DNA of 64,000 bases from Poseidonia sp. Its GTDB lineage: Archaea; Thermoplasmatota; Poseidoniia; Poseidoniales; Poseidoniaceae. A program made the position numbers and the translations under genes. Below the pieces are notes generated by a model. That model saw nothing but the letters and a program-made list of their open reading frames with translations. It ran no database searches and was not told the DNA's origin. This document shows positions 28,916-33,674 of this stretch, piece after piece. The DNA is taken from NCBI GenBank assembly GCA_038118245.1, contig JAYOHN010000003.1, positions 923 through 64,922 on the forward strand, written 5' to 3'. The stretch's first letter is position 1. Each line of letters begins with the position of its first letter.

Positions 28916-28979
28916 CACTTTCACTTTCAATCTTAGGGTCTAACAAAACCAACTGGGCCCTCTTTCCGGTCAACGCGTC

Positions 28980-29249
28980 ATGGGACGAAGCGTGCCACCA
29001 TGGCGAACGCGTGTTGAACGTGAGATGGAGCGATGGCAGGCCTATCGGCGGGCGCTTTCAACCCCCGAACAAGCGGCATTGGACGCCCTGTTCGATGAAG
29101 TGCGCCAGCGGCGTGCTGCCGGGGGAATGCTGCCTTCGCTTGAGACATGGCACCCGATGGTGCTGAGCATGGCCGTGGGTTTGATGGTGCGAATCGGTCA
29201 GTTGGACCACCGGCTTTCCGCTCTTGAGGCGAGGCGAGTGGATGATTGA
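28980..29249 (+). CDS. small helical protein (89 aa) translationally coupled to polB, function unknown
   Basis: The ATG ORF has its stop inside ATGATTGA, which also holds the polB ATG (8-nt overlap). The protein is Arg/Ala-rich and predicted helical, with a short hydrophobic stretch (MVLSMAVGLMV). I recognise no family. Confidence 0.5.
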   Translation: MGRSVPPWRTRVEREMERWQAYRRALSTPEQAALDALFDEVRQRRAAGGMLPSLETWHPMVLSMAVGLMVRIGQLDHRLSALEARRVDD

Positions 29250-31701
29250 AGGCTGGCTGCTCGACGTTCATGAAAACACCCACCACTCCGGCATGGTGGC
29301 TTGGATTGTTGACGATGCTGGAGCGGCACACGCCTGCGAAATACCGTGGACGGCATCGCTTCATGTTCACGCATCGTCCGCCGACATGCAGCGTCTTGAA
29401 CACTGGCTGATGTTGCCTGAAATATCGGCTCGGTTCGGTGTTCTGAGCGTGGTCCGGAGGGCGATGCGCCTCGATTTGGAGAGCGAAGGTCGGACCTCGG
29501 TTCTGGAGGTGCGTATCGGGCCGTTCCACCACCTCAAGGCGCTTGCAGAACACATCGAGGCGAGAGGCGACTTTCACCGCTACACGTTGTATTCGGTGGA
29601 TGCACATTTGGTCCAGCGTTTTCTCAACGAACACGGCTGCGAACCGTTCGCAAAAGTTCGTTGGGATGCCGACGGCCCGATTCCTCTCCAGTCCGTTTCC
29701 ACCGACGGCGATGAAAGCGGACCACCGCTCTGCGTTGTTCAAATTGGCTTTACCTTCGCCTCGGCATCGTTTCCGTCGGTGAACGATGCCATCCAGCGCA
29801 TTGAGTTGCGCATCAACGAGGAGCCGGGTGTTCTCGCCTCGCCGCGCGCCGTTGTCGAGGCCACACTTGACCGCGACCTGTTTCCTTCTCTCGAAGCGTT
29901 CCTGCATGCCTTCGAAAAAGCGTTTCACGCCATCGATCCGGACGTGGTTTTGAGTTACGGTGGTGATCAGCGGCTGTTTCCGTGGTTGATTCATCAAAGC
30001 GAAGCGGCGGGTTCTTCGCTTCGTCTGGGCCGCTCGAACACCCCTCTGCGGCCGTCCACGCAAGCTCGGACCGTACGTTCATACGGCCACACGCTTCATC
30101 GTCACGCTGCCTTCTTCCTCGAAGGCCGTTTGCATTTGGACCTTCGCAACAGCTTCATCGTCAAGGAAGGCGGTGTTGCAGGGTTGCTTGAACTGGCGCA
30201 ACAATCGAGCCAGTCTGCTCAAGTGATTTCTCGCCTCTCTCCAGGTTCGGTGATCAGTGCCATACAGATGCGGGTGGCCATGGACGACGGCGTTTTGGTT
30301 CCGTGGAAAAAAAACCGCCCTGAAGACACGAAGTCCGCTCTTGAACTTCTTCACGCAGACCGCGGAGGGTTGTACCTTGACAGCCGTCCGGGCGTCTATT
30401 CCTCCGTGATTGAACTGGACTTCGCCAGCCTCTTTCCAAGCATCATCGCCACGCGCAACATCTCTCCAGAAACGCTCAACTGCACCTGCTGCCAGCCCCC
30501 AGAGCAACACGCCTCCAACGCCTTGGTCCCGCTTGAACCCGACGCAGCGGTGTCTGAATTTCAACGAAGGTACCGCCGCTCGGCGTTCGGGCACGGGCTG
30601 TTTCCGTTGGCCCATGAACAGGCGATGCGCGTGCCCGGTCTGTCCAGTTATACTTGCGGACGTCGTCACGGTTTTTTGGGTCGGGTCGTAGCGCCCATCA
30701 TTGAACGTCGGCGGCAACTCAAACGGCTGCGGACAGCCAAGGGCGATGCTTACGACCTTCGTCAAAACGCCTTGAAGTGGTTGTTGGTCACGTGCTTTGG
30801 TTACACGGGTTATCGCAACGCTCGGTTCGGACGAATTGAGGCCCATGAAGCGATTTGTGCTTGGTCGCGCGATATTTTGTTGACCACCATTGAAGAGGCT
30901 CAACAGGACGGCTGGGAGGTCTTGCACGCCATCGTTGATTGCGTCTGGCTCGTTGACCGCCGTCAACGAAGTCAATCTGAACAGCGCAACGACGCTGAAC
31001 GTTTCGCTGCGCGTGTTACCGAACGGGTCGGAATTCCTCTCGAGTTTGAGCAACATTACGATTTCATCGCTTTTCTTCCGAGTCGCGTACACGGTTCGGG
31101 TTCGCTCACAAAATACTGGGCCTACGGTGGAGGCGAGTACAAGGTTCGGGGCATTGAGTTGCGTCAGCATTCCACTCCGCCGTGGGTGCGTGACCTCCAA
31201 GAGAAGGGGCTGACGTTGTTGGCGACCGGTCACACGGATGCGGGCGTCCCCGGGCCGGAATCTCAACAACGTGTCTTCCAACTTTATCGCGCCGAACTCC
31301 AACGTTTCATGGACGGAGATGTGCCGCTCCATGCGTTGGTCATCGCCCGCCGAGTCACCTCCACATTGAACGATTACCGCGTGAAAAACCTCACCTATGC
31401 AGCGCTTCAGCGAGCACATCAACAGGGACAACACGTCCCGCCGGGGGGAAAGATCCGCTACGTGGTCATGGATTCCAGGGCCAATGAACCCCTTGACAGG
31501 GTGCTTCTCGCCGAAGAACTTCCGTCGACAGCCAACAACATCTCTGGGTGCTTCCAACACTATCAGCAACTCGCCGAACGAGCAGTATGGGCGCTTTTGG
31601 CTCCGTTCGGGTGGACGACCGAACGTCTGAACATGGAGGGGCAGCAAGCCACCCTTCTCGATTTTACCACTCGCCGTGATGGAGCGTCAATGCACCCGTA
31701 G
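29242..31701 (+). CDS. polB: family B DNA polymerase with degenerate exonuclease motifs and an atypical motif C
   Basis: Motif A LDFASLFPSII (DxxSLYPS). Motif B KWLLVTCFGYTGY (KxxxNSxYG with N>T, S>C, Y>F). KxY region TKYWAY...VRGIELRQHS. Motif C reads AIVDCVW instead of YGDTDS, so only one Asp remains. The Exo I position reads LCVVQIGF (no DxE), and Exo II reads YGGDQRLFPWL (no NxxxFD). Confidence 0.85.
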   Translation: MIEGWLLDVHENTHHSGMVAWIVDDAGAAHACEIPWTASLHVHASSADMQRLEHWLMLPEISARFGVLSVVRRAMRLDLESEGRTSVLEVRIGPFHHLKALAEHIEARGDFHRYTLYSVDAHLVQRFLNEHGCEPFAKVRWDADGPIPLQSVSTDGDESGPPLCVVQIGFTFASASFPSVNDAIQRIELRINEEPGVLASPRAVVEATLDRDLFPSLEAFLHAFEKAFHAIDPDVVLSYGGDQRLFPWLIHQSEAAGSSLRLGRSNTPLRPSTQARTVRSYGHTLHRHAAFFLEGRLHLDLRNSFIVKEGGVAGLLELAQQSSQSAQVISRLSPGSVISAIQMRVAMDDGVLVPWKKNRPEDTKSALELLHADRGGLYLDSRPGVYSSVIELDFASLFPSIIATRNISPETLNCTCCQPPEQHASNALVPLEPDAAVSEFQRRYRRSAFGHGLFPLAHEQAMRVPGLSSYTCGRRHGFLGRVVAPIIERRRQLKRLRTAKGDAYDLRQNALKWLLVTCFGYTGYRNARFGRIEAHEAICAWSRDILLTTIEEAQQDGWEVLHAIVDCVWLVDRRQRSQSEQRNDAERFAARVTERVGIPLEFEQHYDFIAFLPSRVHGSGSLTKYWAYGGGEYKVRGIELRQHSTPPWVRDLQEKGLTLLATGHTDAGVPGPESQQRVFQLYRAELQRFMDGDVPLHALVIARRVTSTLNDYRVKNLTYAALQRAHQQGQHVPPGGKIRYVVMDSRANEPLDRVLLAEELPSTANNISGCFQHYQQLAERAVWALLAPFGWTTERLNMEGQQATLLDFTTRRDGASMHP

Positions 31702-32449
31702 ATGGAGGCATGGTTCGGTTCCCAAATTCACGAGGTTGGAGTACAAAACGGGTCTGTCTGCGGTCAAGTTCTGGATCCCATCGGCCCTGAAGACCTGTTC
31801 GTGGATGGCGGAGGAATAGCTGACGTTGGCGTCTTGAACCCTGCCATTCTCCGAGCAGGTGATGGTCACAGCGAACGTGCAGGTGGCGAAGCAATCGGCC
31901 GAGGTGCGGTGTCCGAGCGCGTTGCTCCGTGATGATCACGACTGCCACACGGTGGTGCTGTGCAAGGCGTTGGAGCACACGAGCATGACGCTTGAGCAAG
32001 GTGCGCGATTCCAAGCGTTTGATGGCGTCGTCTTCGTGCATGGCCAGCAAACCGTCAACCACGATCATGGGTGAACGCGTCAGTTGAACTTCTTGTGACA
32101 AGCGTTCAATCTGCTTGTCCAGTTGATGGAGCGTGAACCCGCGACTGAGGTAAAGCCGAGCGAGGCAAGCTTCGGTATCGGCTTGCAACCGAGCAAGGGG
32201 GGCCAGGAGCCGAGAAGGGTCAATGCGGCAGGCGCCGTCAACCCAGTGGACCGTGTGGCCCGCAGCAAGAGCGTGGGCCACCCAATGTTCAGCAACGGGG
32301 CGCATCCCCCTTCCTGCATGGCCTGGCCCTGCTAGATGGTAGAGCATTCCCGGTTGGGGGTGGATGTCGTTGAGGTTGAGTTGGGGGGCAGGTCGCCGCA
32401 ACAACGGATGCGGGCATGCTTGGGCATTTTCGGTCTTCATGTCAATCAT
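31664..32449 (-). CDS. RecA-fold (ImuA/RadB-like) protein with a degenerate P-loop
   Basis: The order of elements is RecA-like. It starts with MLYHLAGPGHAGRGM (GxxxxGRG in place of GxxxxGKT) and TVHWVDG. Next come RLYLSRGFTLHQL and MIVVDGLLAM (Walker-B-like). It ends with LQRLAQHHRVAVVIITEQ and an Arg-rich C-terminus. The start was set at ATG 32449, with CGAGGA 6 nt upstream. The track start at 32593 would overlap dinB. Confidence 0.5.
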   Translation of the reverse strand: MIDMKTENAQACPHPLLRRPAPQLNLNDIHPQPGMLYHLAGPGHAGRGMRPVAEHWVAHALAAGHTVHWVDGACRIDPSRLLAPLARLQADTEACLARLYLSRGFTLHQLDKQIERLSQEVQLTRSPMIVVDGLLAMHEDDAIKRLESRTLLKRHARVLQRLAQHHRVAVVIITEQRARTPHLGRLLRHLHVRCDHHLLGEWQGSRRQRQLFLRHPRTGLQGRWDPELDRRQTRFVLQPREFGNRTMPPSTGALTLHHGEW

Positions 32450-32561
32450 TGACGGTCCTCGAACGAGGTCAACGTTCTTTTTGCAGACCCCTTTGTTGAA
32501 CTGATGCCCATCAAGTTGAAACACCGTGGACATGGATGATTTTACGCAGTGAGGGGTTGAT

Positions 32562-33674
32562 GTGGGTGGCGACGATGAACGGCGCATCATCATTCATTGT
32601 GATTTGGATGCCTTTTTTGCTGCCGTGGAGACGCTTCATCATGGCTTTGATGAGCGTGTGCCTCTGATCATTGGCTCCGATCCAAAACAGGGACGTGGCC
32701 GTGGCATCGTGTCGACCTGCAACTACGAGGCTCGTACCTATGGCATTCGTTCGGCGATGCCGATTTCTGAGGCATGGCGAAGATGCCCCGCCGTTCCCTT
32801 TGGTCCTGGACGGTACATACGAGGGACGCGCGGCTTGTACTCCCGTGCGAGTCGAAAAGTCATGCAGGTGCTGCGCCGACCCGCTGGAGCGTTTGAGAAA
32901 GCCAGCATTGATGAAGCCTACATGGACGTCACGGACGCCGTTGGAGGTGACTGGGATGCTGCCTTGGCACTGGCAAAATCGTTGCAGTCTGAAATTTACC
33001 AAACCCTGGGTTTGACCGCATCGTTTGGCATCGCATCAACGCGGGTCCTTGCAAAAATGTCCAGCGAGGTCAACAAACCCAACGGCATCCATCGTGTCTT
33101 GCCGGATGAGATTGAGGCGTTTTTTGCAGGGAGGTCGGTTCGTGAAATTCCCGGAATCGGTCCTAAACGCGCAACACAACTGGCTGAATGGGGGTACTCG
33201 ACGGCGGATGAATTGCAGGCCTTGGGTGAACTCTCGCTTGCGAGATTGGCGGGGGAACGGTTTGCATCGTGGTTTTTGAGCGTCGTTGAGGGCGAGAGCA
33301 GCGACATCGTGAGTCCTGTACGGAGCCGCAAATCCGTCGGCAAAGAGCACACGTTTGAGCACGATCAACACGACCACGAAGTCGTCCTCAAACGGTTGCT
33401 CGACTTGGTGGAACTTGTTCTTGACCGTGCGACGGTGTTGGGCGTCGCAGGACGGTTGGCGGAAGTGAAAATTCGATACACGGGCTTCGAAACCCATGCC
33501 TCCAGCCGAAGCATTCCCGTTGCAATGGACGATGCTGCCGTGTTCAAACGGTTAGCGGCCACTCTTTTCGCCAGCACGCTCGAGGCTGACCGAGGCGTTC
33601 GCCTTGTGGGCTTTCGCATGGGGCAATTGGAGGTGCCGCCGTCCCGCCAAACGACGCTGTTTGAGGAGGAATGA
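32562..33674 (+). CDS. dinB: Y-family DNA polymerase IV (DinB/Dpo4-like), catalytic residues intact
   Basis: IIHCDLDAFFAAVE and SIDEAYMDV (the catalytic Asp/Asp-Glu), then SFGIASTRVLAKMSS and IPGIGPK (HhH). The GTG start is preceded by GTGAGGGG. Confidence 0.9.
   Translation: MGGDDERRIIIHCDLDAFFAAVETLHHGFDERVPLIIGSDPKQGRGRGIVSTCNYEARTYGIRSAMPISEAWRRCPAVPFGPGRYIRGTRGLYSRASRKVMQVLRRPAGAFEKASIDEAYMDVTDAVGGDWDAALALAKSLQSEIYQTLGLTASFGIASTRVLAKMSSEVNKPNGIHRVLPDEIEAFFAGRSVREIPGIGPKRATQLAEWGYSTADELQALGELSLARLAGERFASWFLSVVEGESSDIVSPVRSRKSVGKEHTFEHDQHDHEVVLKRLLDLVELVLDRATVLGVAGRLAEVKIRYTGFETHASSRSIPVAMDDAAVFKRLAATLFASTLEADRGVRLVGFRMGQLEVPPSRQTTLFEEE

What the first reader, a model, noticed from the sequence alone, without database searches (positions are those of the whole stretch)
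29242..31701. Family-B polymerase lacking recognisable 3'-5' exonuclease acids and with motif C reduced to a single Asp
Polymerase motifs A (DFASLFPS), B (K-LLVTCFGYTGY) and the KxY region are recognisable. At the expected Exo I position the sequence is LCVVQIGF (no D-x-E), and at Exo II it is YGGDQRLFPWL (no N-x-x-x-F-D). Motif C reads AIVDCVW rather than Y-G-D-T-D-S. If VDC aligns to TDS, the metal-binding second Asp is kept and the enzyme could still be an active but non-proofreading polymerase. This is the pattern reported for PolB2/Dpo2-type archaeal enzymes, which have been implicated in damage-induced mutagenesis.
Basis: partly seen in the sequence, partly recalled or inferred. Interest (0 to 1): 0.6.

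Follow-up and report, generated by a model that had tools for sequence, protein, structure and literature searches.

The report
Known PolB2 translesion polymerase of Poseidoniales
This gene encodes an archaeal PolB2 (Dpo2-type) DNA polymerase that has lost its proofreading site but keeps the residues needed for synthesis, and it sits with its two known partner genes, so it is a typical member of a published translesion "mutasome" and not something new.

Summary
ORF 29242-31701(+) encodes an 819-aa family-B polymerase. Motif A (DFASLFPS) and motif B (KWLLVTCFGYTGY) are intact. Motif C is HAIVD, with one Asp. The Exo I position is not conserved, the Exo II catalytic Asp is Leu, and the Exo III segment is deleted.

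The interpretation as a PolB2/Dpo2-type enzyme is also correct. The protein carries every published B2 signature: HxxxD, D(K/R)-GG, Exo I not conserved and Exo III missing. It aligns to S. islandicus Dpo2 with IVD opposite 401-IID-403 and D373-R374 opposite 253-DK-254. It is flanked by the two published partners:
- PPB2 (28980-29249), starting MGRS with Arg3 and Arg9.
- iRadA (31664-32449, minus strand).

A Poseidonia sp. homologue 61% identical to this protein was already catalogued and modelled as a PolB2-iRadA-3xPPB2 complex (Timinskas et al. 2025, operon group 3b). That paper's neighbourhood table already lists the adjacent DinB, 2-hydroxyacid dehydrogenase and tRNA synthetase genes.

The genome also has a canonical proofreading PolB and PolD. 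PolB2 is patchy in the order (71 of 151 genomes), as expected for an accessory repair enzyme.

Two side observations may not be in those papers: a conserved tandem ACTTTC promoter box shared by the PPB2 and iRadA promoters, and a conserved CxCC...C cluster.

The parts
29242..31701 (+). polB2: 819-aa family-B polymerase of the B2 (Dpo2) group, exonuclease-dead
   Evidence: AF2 model: pLDDT 84.2, pTM 0.82. Full-length fold match to Tgo, Pab, KOD and 9N PolB: TM 0.60-0.70, E about 1e-39.
28980..29249 (+). PPB2 (arCOG07300, 'partner of PolB2'), 89 aa, N-terminus MGRSVPPWR. Its stop codon overlaps the polB2 ATG (ATGATTGA).
   Evidence: Start MGR[ST], Arg3 and Arg9 are each present in 77 of 78 Poseidoniales loci. 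The gene lies directly upstream on the same strand in 75 of 75 loci with room. The published PPB2 hallmark is the 'MGRT' arm with Arg3 and Arg9. Alignment A2.
31664..32449 (-). iRadA: 261-aa Rad51/RadA-core protein with P-loop GPGHAGRG (Lys->Arg, Ser/Thr->Gly). It is convergent with polB2, and the 3' ends overlap by 38 nt.
   Evidence: Pfam Rad51, 32.3 bits. Weak RadB and Rad51 NCBIfam hits far below cut-off. Convergent and adjacent in 75 of 77 loci. P-loop variants. The published Poseidoniales iRadA sequences in Timinskas data file 2 are homologous.
32562..33674 (+). dinB: Y-family Pol IV/Dpo4-type polymerase with intact catalytic DLD...SIDEAY. It is divergent from iRadA.
   Evidence: Pfam IMS and IMS_C. 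NF002677 at 267 bits exceeds the 256-bit cut-off. Adjacent in 50 of 69 loci with room. IMS is listed in 46 of 95 group-3b neighbourhoods in the published table.
30358..30363 (+). D373-R374, the B2-specific D(K/R) motif immediately before GG
   Evidence: D in 136 of 136 and R/K in 132 of 136 representatives. Aligned to Dpo2 D253-K254. Lies in the low-confidence loop 358-377 of the AF2 model. The published model has this loop contacting PPB2 and iRadA.
30418..30441 (+). Motif A, D393-FASLFPS (catalytic Asp)
30775..30813 (+). Motif B, K512-WLLVTCFGYTGY
30925..30939 (+). Motif C as HxxxD (H562-A-I-V-D566). The first Asp is replaced by Ile.
29728..29754 (+). Exo I-equivalent strand (LCVVQIGFT), no DxE
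29956..29988 (+). Exo II-equivalent (YGGDQRLFPWL); catalytic Asp -> Leu245
30481..30657 (+). CxCC...C cluster (C414, C416, C417, C472) enclosing an insert found in the Poseidoniales sequences
   Evidence: Cys conserved in 125-135 of 136 representatives. The spacer is 17-21 aa in most representatives and 59 aa here. C417 and C472 align to the Cys pair of Pab PolB.
31645..31668 (+). C-terminal PIP-like box Q802-ATLLDF-T (Qxx-L-xx-F)
   Evidence: L805 is invariant and F808 is at least 90% conserved. Aligns to the QRTLFSF C-terminus of the genome's own canonical PolB. Disordered in the AF2 model.
28917..28949 (+). Conserved promoter element upstream of PPB2: ACTTTCACTTTC, then N7, then GGGTCT-AACAAAAC
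   Evidence: Tandem box present in 73 of 76 loci at about -65 or -74. GGGTC at -44 or -43 in 55 of 76.
32481..32523 (-). Related element upstream of iRadA: GTTTCAACTTGA..AGTTCAAC..GGGGTCT-GCAAAAAG, with GGGTCT 41 nt before the ATG
   Evidence: In L051, L058 and L060 the iRadA promoter carries the full ACTTTCACTTTCA-N5-GGGTCT box.

Best explanation
The gene encodes the catalytic subunit of the archaeal PolB2 translesion complex (PolB2 + PPB2 trimer + iRadA).

Shown by sequence here:
- It is a full-length family-B fold with a dead and partly deleted exonuclease active site.
- It keeps an intact two-carboxylate polymerase centre: D393 of motif A and D566 of motif C.
- It carries the B2-specific His562 and D373-R374.

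Inferred by homology to the characterised Sulfolobus Dpo2:
- It is an active polymerase without proofreading.
- It mainly extends mismatched or lesion-opposed primer ends after an inserter has placed a nucleotide. The adjacent DinB is the obvious candidate inserter.
- The conserved loop at about residues 329-374 docks iRadA and the MGRS N-terminal arm of one PPB2 subunit.
- The C-terminal QATLLDF box tethers the complex to PCNA.

The two convergent transcription units (PPB2-polB2 and iRadA) share a conserved promoter element. They are therefore probably co-regulated, plausibly by DNA damage.
For: - Motif and alignment evidence.
- Published B2 definition (Exo I not conserved, Exo III missing, one Asp in motif C, conserved His, D(K/R)).
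- Dpo2 is a robust polymerase without exonuclease and a mismatch/lesion extender.
- Partner genes: PPB2 with MGR[ST], R3 and R9 in 77 of 78 loci; iRadA adjacent in 75 of 77 and PPB2 upstream in 75 of 75.
- A Poseidonia sp. homologue (MBL6742771, whose printed N-terminus matches my P0056, 61% identical to the window protein) was modelled as a pentamer with AlphaFold ranking score 0.83.
- The published table for operon group 3b lists the same neighbours: 2-Hacid_dh_C 45, IMS 46, tRNA-synt_1 42, of 95.
- NCBIfam preference is shared with Dpo2.
- The genome also has a canonical PolB with FDLET, NIDNFD, YCVRD and DTD, plus PolD.
- Distribution is patchy: 71 of 151 genomes and 15 of 22 genera.
- AF2 model and fold matches.
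- Shared promoter element.
Against: - No biochemical, genetic or expression data exist for any Poseidoniales PolB2.
- iRadA is on the opposite strand here, so co-expression is inferred only from the shared promoter element.
- DinB adjacency is absent in about a quarter of loci.
- The KxY lysine is shifted by one position.
- The Poseidoniales enzyme is about 260 residues larger than Dpo2 and has an extra insert of about 40 aa. Its kinetic behaviour may therefore differ from Dpo2.
Confidence: 0.87

Rival explanations
1. It is a catalytically inactive polymerase relic kept for a structural or scaffolding role. This was the prediction for PolB2 before 2020.
For: The first Asp of motif C is lost, the exonuclease site is lost, and the KxY lysine is shifted. 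PolB2 was long annotated as inactivated.
Against: The metal-ligand Asp residues, the motif B Lys and Tyr, and the B2-specific His and D(K/R) are near-invariant across 136 representatives down to 31% identity. Sulfolobus Dpo2 has the same IID motif and is as active as Dpo1.
Confidence: 0.08
2. It is a replicative or general-repair PolB (B3/B1 type) whose exonuclease motifs were simply misaligned.
For: The full-length fold matches Thermococcales replicative PolBs, and a PIP-like C-terminus is present.
Against: - Pairwise, profile and family alignments recover no DxE, NxxxFD or YxxxD.
- Identity to the genome's own canonical PolB is only 22%.
- That PolB and PolD are both present.
- The gene is absent from about half of Poseidoniales genomes.
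Confidence: 0.03
3. It is a polymerase carried by a mobile element, such as a casposon, a provirus or a plasmid remnant.
For: PolB2 operons have moved horizontally among archaea and into bacteria. The distribution within the order is patchy.
Against: The locus is syntenic between housekeeping genes (2-hydroxyacid dehydrogenase and valS) in dozens of species. GC content equals that of the flanks. No integrase, terminal protein or Cas1 lies nearby.
Confidence: 0.02

Closest known systems
Poseidonia sp. PolB2 complex (PolB2 MBL6742771, iRadA MBL6742772, PPB2 MBL6742770), operon group '3b (PPB2-PolB2-iRadA)' in Timinskas, Timinskas & Venclovas 2025 (PMC11791011)
   Same: Same order and genus-level lineage, same three genes in the same order, and the same neighbours (2-Hacid_dh, IMS/DinB, tRNA-synt_1). 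The PolB2 is 61% identical over 99% of its length.
   Different: It is a different species. The iRadA P-loop here is GPGHAGRG, whereas many Poseidoniales copies keep GxGxxGK[ST].
Sulfolobus/Saccharolobus Dpo2 (PolB2), the experimentally characterised extender TLS polymerase
   Same: HxxxD motif C (IID versus IVD), D(K/R)-GG, dead exonuclease, and PPB2-PolB2-iRadA gene order. BLASTP E = 2e-31.
   Different: According to the cited papers, Dpo2 is the smallest known PolB2 and has a strongly decayed exonuclease domain. The window protein is 819 aa and its model matches full-length archaeal PolBs over the whole chain. It has four conserved Cys where Dpo2 has two, an insert of about 40 aa, and a C-terminal PIP-like box. 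iRadA is convergent here.
E. coli Pol V mutasome (UmuD'2C-RecA) and the bacterial ImuA-ImuB-DnaE2 cassette
   Same: Analogous logic: an error-tolerant polymerase, a small oligomeric accessory protein and a RecA-fold subunit, under damage control. The parallel with Pol V is drawn. The ImuA-ImuB-DnaE2 comparison rests on my own knowledge.
   Different: The polymerase families differ (Y and C versus B), and the accessory proteins are unrelated. This is analogy, not membership.
Eukaryotic Pol zeta (Rev3)
   Same: A B-family polymerase with an inactive exonuclease that acts as an extender after a Y-family inserter.
   Different: It belongs to a different B-family clade, has Rev7, Pol31 and Pol32 as subunits, and has a C-terminal metal-binding domain.
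Thermococcales/Pyrococcus PolB (B3) and E. coli Pol II
   Same: Overall five-domain fold: TM 0.6-0.7 to Tgo, Pab, KOD and 9N. C417 and C472 align to the Cys pair of Pab PolB.
   Different: Those enzymes keep DxE, NxxxFD, YxxxD and YxDTD, and they proofread.

Membership tests
Archaeal PolB2 (B2 group, Dpo2 type) | Exo I motif not conserved | tested here: met
   LCVVQIGF lies opposite FDLET of the genome's own canonical PolB. The column is variable within 16, 75 and 136 sequences.
Archaeal PolB2 (B2 group, Dpo2 type) | Exo III motif missing altogether | tested here: met
   About 45 residues are absent between GRLHLDL and the following helix. Profile positions 266-316 span residues 238-333 of the archaeal family-B polymerase chain 6wya.
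Archaeal PolB2 (B2 group, Dpo2 type) | Motif C is HxxxD: one Asp and a conserved His in place of YxDTD | tested here: met
   H562-A-I-V-D566. His in 131 of 136 and Asp in 136 of 136. IVD aligns to DTD of Pab PolB and to 401-IID-403 of Dpo2.
Archaeal PolB2 (B2 group, Dpo2 type) | Group-specific D(K/R) motif in a flexible loop before motif A | tested here: met
   D373-R374. D in 136 of 136 and K/R in 132 of 136. Aligned to Dpo2 D253-K254. The AF2 pLDDT is below 50 for residues 358-377.
Archaeal PolB2 (B2 group, Dpo2 type) | Intact motif A Asp and motif B Lys/Tyr (polymerase competent) | tested here: met
   D393 in 135 of 136, K512 in 135 of 136, Y521 in 131 of 136.
Archaeal PolB2 (B2 group, Dpo2 type) | Closer to Dpo2-type sequences than to B3/B1 polymerases | tested here: met
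   114 bits and 29% identity to a 399-aa Dpo2 fragment, against 58 bits and 22% to the genome's own canonical PolB. NF004418 and NF004416 are the top models for both this protein and Dpo2. No tree with named B1 and B3 references was built.
PolB2 mutasome (PolB2-PPB2-iRadA operon) | Adjacent PPB2 (arCOG07300), small and helical, with the conserved N-terminal 'MGRT' arm and Arg3/Arg9 | tested here: met
   The 89-aa ORF starts MGRSVPPWR. MGR[ST], R3 and R9 are each present in 77 of 78 loci. Helicity and trimer formation were not modelled here.
PolB2 mutasome (PolB2-PPB2-iRadA operon) | Adjacent iRadA: a RadA/Rad51 core without the N-terminal domain and with degenerate ATPase residues | tested here: met
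   Pfam Rad51 at 32 bits covers only profile positions 62-174. The Walker A reads GPGHAGRG. Caveat: most Poseidoniales copies still read GxGxxGK[ST], so the degeneracy is lineage-specific.
PolB2 mutasome (PolB2-PPB2-iRadA operon) | The three genes in one orientation, forming one operon | tested here: not met
   iRadA is convergent with polB2 in the window and in 75 of 77 Poseidoniales loci. The authors say 'in most cases' the genes share an orientation, and they still place Poseidoniales in their group 3b. This is therefore a tolerated variant, not an exclusion.
PolB2 mutasome (PolB2-PPB2-iRadA operon) | Polymerase activity without 3'-5' exonuclease; efficient mismatch and lesion extension | not testable with these tools
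   Known only for Sulfolobus Dpo2.
PolB2 mutasome (PolB2-PPB2-iRadA operon) | DNA-damage-inducible expression | not testable with these tools
The only evidence is a conserved promoter box resembling the Sulfolobus ANTTTC element.
Proofreading archaeal PolB (B3/B1) | Exo I DxE, Exo II NxxxFD, Exo III YxxxD, and motif C YxDTD | tested here: not met
   None of the four is present. The genome's other PolB has all four.

The most novel reading that the evidence does not exclude
In Poseidoniales the mutasome genes are split into two convergent transcription units. Their promoters share a conserved composite element: tandem ACTTTC-ACTTTC followed by GGGTCT-N2-CAAA about 41-44 nt before the ATG. ACTTTC fits ANTTTC, the Orc1-2 damage-response element of Sulfolobus. 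The genome has two Orc1/Cdc6 paralogues. The iRadA promoter region is shared divergently with dinB.

The reading that is not excluded is this: a sunlit-ocean archaeon of the Thermoplasmatota runs an Orc1/Cdc6-type damage regulon that co-induces a Y-family inserter and a B-family extender from one locus. That would extend the Sulfolobus damage-response circuit well beyond Crenarchaeota.
Probability: 0.25. Interest if true: 0.45.

Novelty: already known. Interest (0 to 1): 0.15.

Why it matters
It matters little as a discovery. The enzyme class, its odd active site, its partner proteins and this lineage's version of the locus are all published.

It is useful as annotation. The "hypothetical" 89-aa ORF and the RecA-like gene should be named PPB2 and iRadA, and the polymerase should be named PolB2, not "DNA polymerase I".

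It also shows that abundant surface-ocean Marine Group II archaea carry an inserter (DinB) next to an extender (PolB2). That fits a UV-exposed lifestyle. The conserved promoter box gives a concrete handle for asking how these uncultured archaea regulate damage tolerance.

Tried and rejected
- The single genome-contig scan used family-specific peptide patterns (VLVPWKKN, [RQ]QNALKWL). It returned only Poseidoniales, so it gave no named B1, B2 or B3 references for a tree. I took a 399-aa Dpo2 fragment from the published supplement instead.
- Local Pfam did not recognise PPB2, although the precomputed annotation of homologues lists PF26485/DUF8156.
- Neither the single sequence nor the 75-sequence profile could align the Exo I region to solved structures. 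The Exo I equivalence therefore rests on MAFFT with the genome's own canonical PolB.
I could not measure the D393-D566 geometry or the Cys-Cys distances.
- The bacterial ImuA-ImuB-DnaE2 idea was dropped as a membership claim. It is only an analogy.
- A genome-wide search for the tandem promoter box found only one further site, against about one expected by chance. No regulon can be claimed.
Full report
WHAT IS THERE

The window lies on contig C3 of a 1.59-Mb, 78%-complete archaeal MAG. Its relatives are labelled Poseidonia and Poseidoniales, that is Marine Group II, phylum Thermoplasmatota.

The ORF at 29242-31701(+) encodes 819 aa. An upstream TTG at 29224 is possible, but all homologues begin M-I-E-G-W, so ATG 29242 is the start. 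Pfam finds only the polymerase domain, DNA_pol_B at 80.7 bits over residues 344-758. It finds no exonuclease domain.

In the HMMER alignment to Pyrococcus abyssi PolB, I564-V565-D566 sit opposite D-T-D. In that same alignment Y239-GGDQRLFPWL sits opposite YNGDNFxFPYL. The Exo II Asn is therefore Gly240 and the catalytic Asp is Leu245. The invariant D242 is the non-catalytic Asp of NGD.

In a MAFFT alignment with the genome's own canonical PolB, LCVVQIGF lies opposite YRILSFDL, so the DxE is G169/T171. This position varies freely even among close relatives.

There is no Exo III equivalent. Roughly 45 residues are missing after GRLHLDL. In the profile alignment to the best-scoring PDB hit, the archaeal family-B polymerase 6wya, positions 266-316 span chain residues 238-333.

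The AlphaFold2 model (pLDDT 84.2, pTM 0.82) is a complete five-domain PolB. It matches Tgo, Pab, KOD, 9N and Pyrobaculum PolB over its whole length, with TM 0.60-0.70 and E about 1e-39. The exonuclease domain is therefore present but has no active site.

THE POLYMERASE SITE IS UNDER SELECTION

In 75 Poseidoniales homologues (47-83% identity), D393, K512, Y521, H562 and D566 are invariant.

I also ran an exhaustive search of 1.84 billion cluster representatives. I aligned 136 of its best 150 hits, those of 500-1000 aa and 31-65% identity. The counts were D393 135/136, K512 135/136, H562 131/136, D566 136/136, D373 136/136 and R/K374 132/136. The first motif C position is I, L or V, never Asp.

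IT IS A PolB2

Kazlauskas et al. 2020 define the archaeal B2 group (and its bacterial offshoot G2) by four features: Exo I not conserved, Exo III missing altogether, one Asp in motif C with a conserved His, and a group-specific D(K/R) motif. Feng et al. 2022 phrase motif C as YxDTD mutated into HxxxD. All four features are met.

I took the first 399 residues of S. islandicus Dpo2 from the supplement of Timinskas et al. 2025. BLASTP against it gives E = 2e-31. It puts D373-R374 on D253-K254 and I564-V565-D566 on 401-IID-403, the residue numbers quoted in that paper.

The two best NCBIfam models for the window protein are NF004418 (393 bits) and NF004416 (365 bits). These are also the two best for the Dpo2 fragment. 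The genome's other PolB prefers NF004421 and scores only 75 and 35 bits on those two models. The window protein is only 22% identical (58 bits) to that other PolB.

THE GENOME'S OTHER REPLICASES

Contig C23 carries a canonical PolB with FDLETS, YNIDNFD, YCVRD, DFKSMYPS, KILMNSFYG and YSDTDS. Contig C4 carries the PolD large subunit.

PolB2 is found in 71 of 151 Poseidoniales genomes that are at least 80% complete. That is 28 of 58 high-quality genomes and 15 of 22 genera. All 21 genomes of the window's own genus have it. This is the pattern of an accessory repair enzyme.

THE NEIGHBOURS ARE THE KNOWN PARTNER SUBUNITS

Timinskas et al. 2025 describe a PolB2 "mutasome" made of PolB2, a trimer of the small helical PPB2 (formerly arCOG07300) and iRadA, an ATPase-dead RadA core.

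- PPB2. The 89-aa ORF at 28980-29249 starts MGRSVPPWR, and its stop overlaps the polB2 ATG. The published hallmark of PPB2 is the N-terminal "MGRT" arm with Arg3 and Arg9. In 80 species-representative Poseidoniales loci, PPB2 is directly upstream in 75 of 75 with room. MGR[ST], R3 and R9 are each present in 77 of 78.
- iRadA. The gene at 31664-32449(-) hits Pfam Rad51 at 32 bits over the core only, and has GPGHAGRG for Walker A. It is adjacent and convergent in 75 of 77 loci.
- dinB. The gene at 32562-33674 is above the NCBIfam Pol IV cut-off and keeps DLD...SIDEAY. It is adjacent in 50 of 69 loci.

THIS EXACT LOCUS TYPE IS ALREADY PUBLISHED

The supplement of Timinskas et al. lists Poseidoniales operons as group "3b (PPB2-PolB2-iRadA)". 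It includes an AlphaFold-Multimer pentamer for a Poseidonia sp. (PolB2 MBL6742771) with pLDDT 84.4, ipTM 0.83 and ranking score 0.83.

The printed N-terminus of MBL6742771 matches my hit P0056, which is 61% identical to the window protein over 99% of its length.

Their Supplementary Table S1 lists these neighbours for the 95 group-3b operons: 2-Hacid_dh_C (45), IMS (46), Lactamase_B (32) and tRNA-synt_1 (42). This is the window's gene order: Lactamase_B ... 2-Hacid_dh, PPB2, PolB2, iRadA, DinB, ValRS.

The finding is therefore an already described system. The DinB linkage is tabulated there but not discussed in the main text.

LIKELY MECHANISM

Shown: the protein keeps the two metal-binding carboxylates and the dNTP-binding Lys and Tyr, and it lacks every exonuclease carboxylate.

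Inferred from Dpo2: it is an active, non-proofreading polymerase that is poor at inserting opposite lesions but efficient at extending mismatched or lesion-paired termini. The adjacent DinB is the natural inserter.

Inferred from the published complex models:
- The extremely conserved stretch ISRLSPGSVISAIQMRVAMDDGVLVPWKKNRPEDTKSALELLHADR (residues 329-374) ends in a loop that AF2 cannot place in the monomer (358-377, pLDDT below 50).
- This stretch is the beta-alpha element that binds iRadA in the manner of a RadA oligomerisation motif.
- The DR dipeptide contacts the PPB2 arm.

Also inferred: the C-terminus Q802-ATLLDF fits Qxx-L-xx-F and aligns with the QRTLFSF end of the genome's own canonical PolB. 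In this lineage the PCNA-binding box therefore appears to sit on PolB2. A Qxx[LIMV]xx[FYW] box occurs in the last 35 residues of only 22 of 137 aligned sequences (136 PolB2 representatives plus the genome's own PolB). That is consistent with the published statement that few PolB2s carry it.

SIDE OBSERVATIONS

(a) Promoter. Two nt after the stop of the upstream dehydrogenase gene lies ACTTTCACTTTC (28917-28928), followed by GGGTCT (28936-28941) and AACAAAAC. The PPB2 ATG is 44 nt after the start of GGGTCT.
- The tandem box is present in 73 of 76 loci. GGGTC at -44 or -43 is present in 55 of 76.
- The iRadA promoter has GGGGTCT-GCAAAAAG 41 nt before its ATG, preceded by GTTTCAACTTGA and AGTTCAAC.
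- In more distant species (L051, L058, L060) the iRadA promoter carries the full ACTTTCACTTTCA-N5-GGGTCT-N2-CAAAG box. The two convergent units therefore share a cis-element.
- ACTTTC fits ANTTTC, the Orc1-2-bound damage-response element of Sulfolobus. The genome has two Orc1/Cdc6 genes.
- This resemblance rests on a hexamer and is only a lead. Genome-wide, A.TTTCA.TTTC occurs twice against about one expected. The other site lies upstream of a 187-aa beta-propeller-like ORF on C40.

(b) Cysteine cluster. C414-x-C416-C417...C472 is conserved in 125-135 of 136 PolB2 representatives, with a 17-21-aa spacer in most and 59 aa here. Dpo2 and Pab PolB have only the two Cys that align to C417 and C472. 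The Timinskas main text contains none of the words cysteine, zinc or disulfide. The passages of Kazlauskas 2020 that matched "zinc" or "cysteine" and that I read concern other PolB groups. A metal site is possible but untested.

(c) iRadA P-loop. Most Poseidoniales copies keep GxGxxGK[ST]. The Lys is R, S, A, G, D or Q in various clades, including Arg-Gly here. This suggests relaxed selection on the P-loop, not a uniformly dead site.

VERDICT

The system is already known. Interest is low. The promoter element and the Cys cluster are modest leads.

Noticed in passing
window 28917-28949 (+) and 32481-32523 (-): A conserved composite promoter element, tandem ACTTTC-ACTTTC plus GGGTCT-N2-CAAA about 41-44 nt before the ATG, is shared by the PPB2-polB2 and iRadA promoters across Poseidoniales (73 of 76 loci for PPB2). 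ACTTTC fits the Sulfolobus Orc1-2 damage-response hexamer ANTTTC.
   Followed up: partly
genome contig C40, about 12397 (-), outside the window: This is the only other A.TTTCA.TTTC site in the genome: AGTTTCACTTTCA-N12-GGGTGT. It lies 69 nt upstream of a 187-aa ORF that has weak beta-propeller Pfam hits. It could be a co-regulated gene or a chance match.
   Followed up: partly
window 30481-30657 (PolB2 residues 414-472): A CxCC...C cluster is conserved in 125-135 of 136 PolB2 representatives but reduced to two Cys in Sulfolobus Dpo2. The sequences here carry an extra insert of about 40 aa between the Cys. It may be a metal-binding site. The term searches I ran in the two PolB2 papers gave no mention of it.
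   Followed up: partly
window 32306-32329 (iRadA P-loop) and loci L010-L089: The iRadA Walker A is GPGHAGRG here, but most Poseidoniales copies keep GxGxxGK[ST]. The Lys position is K, R, S, A, G, D or Q in different clades. The 'inactive' label may not apply uniformly.
   Followed up: partly
window 33645-33674 (DinB C-terminus): DinB ends ...RQTTLFEEE. PolB2 has QATLLDF and the genome's canonical PolB ends QRTLFSF. All three polymerases share a Q-x-T-L C-terminal box, probably this organism's PCNA-binding motif.
   Followed up: no
L040 (NZEQ01000045.1): This contig is labelled 'Verrucomicrobiales bacterium' but carries a 69%-identical PolB2, iRadA, DinB and an archaeal-type ValRS in Poseidoniales synteny. 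It is almost certainly a mis-binned archaeal contig.
   Followed up: no
Genome-search hits G024, G044, G090, G133: Some Poseidoniales PolB2 genes are split into two frames (G024, at residue 517) or contain a single in-frame stop (G044, G090, G133). These are either occasional pseudogenes or assembly errors.
   Followed up: no
L005/L006 and loci L061-L089: In the more distant Poseidoniales lineage (PolB2 about 48-51% identical), DinB and ValRS are not next to the cassette. In L005 and L006 a peptidase M28 gene follows iRadA. The DinB linkage is therefore clade-specific.
   Followed up: partly
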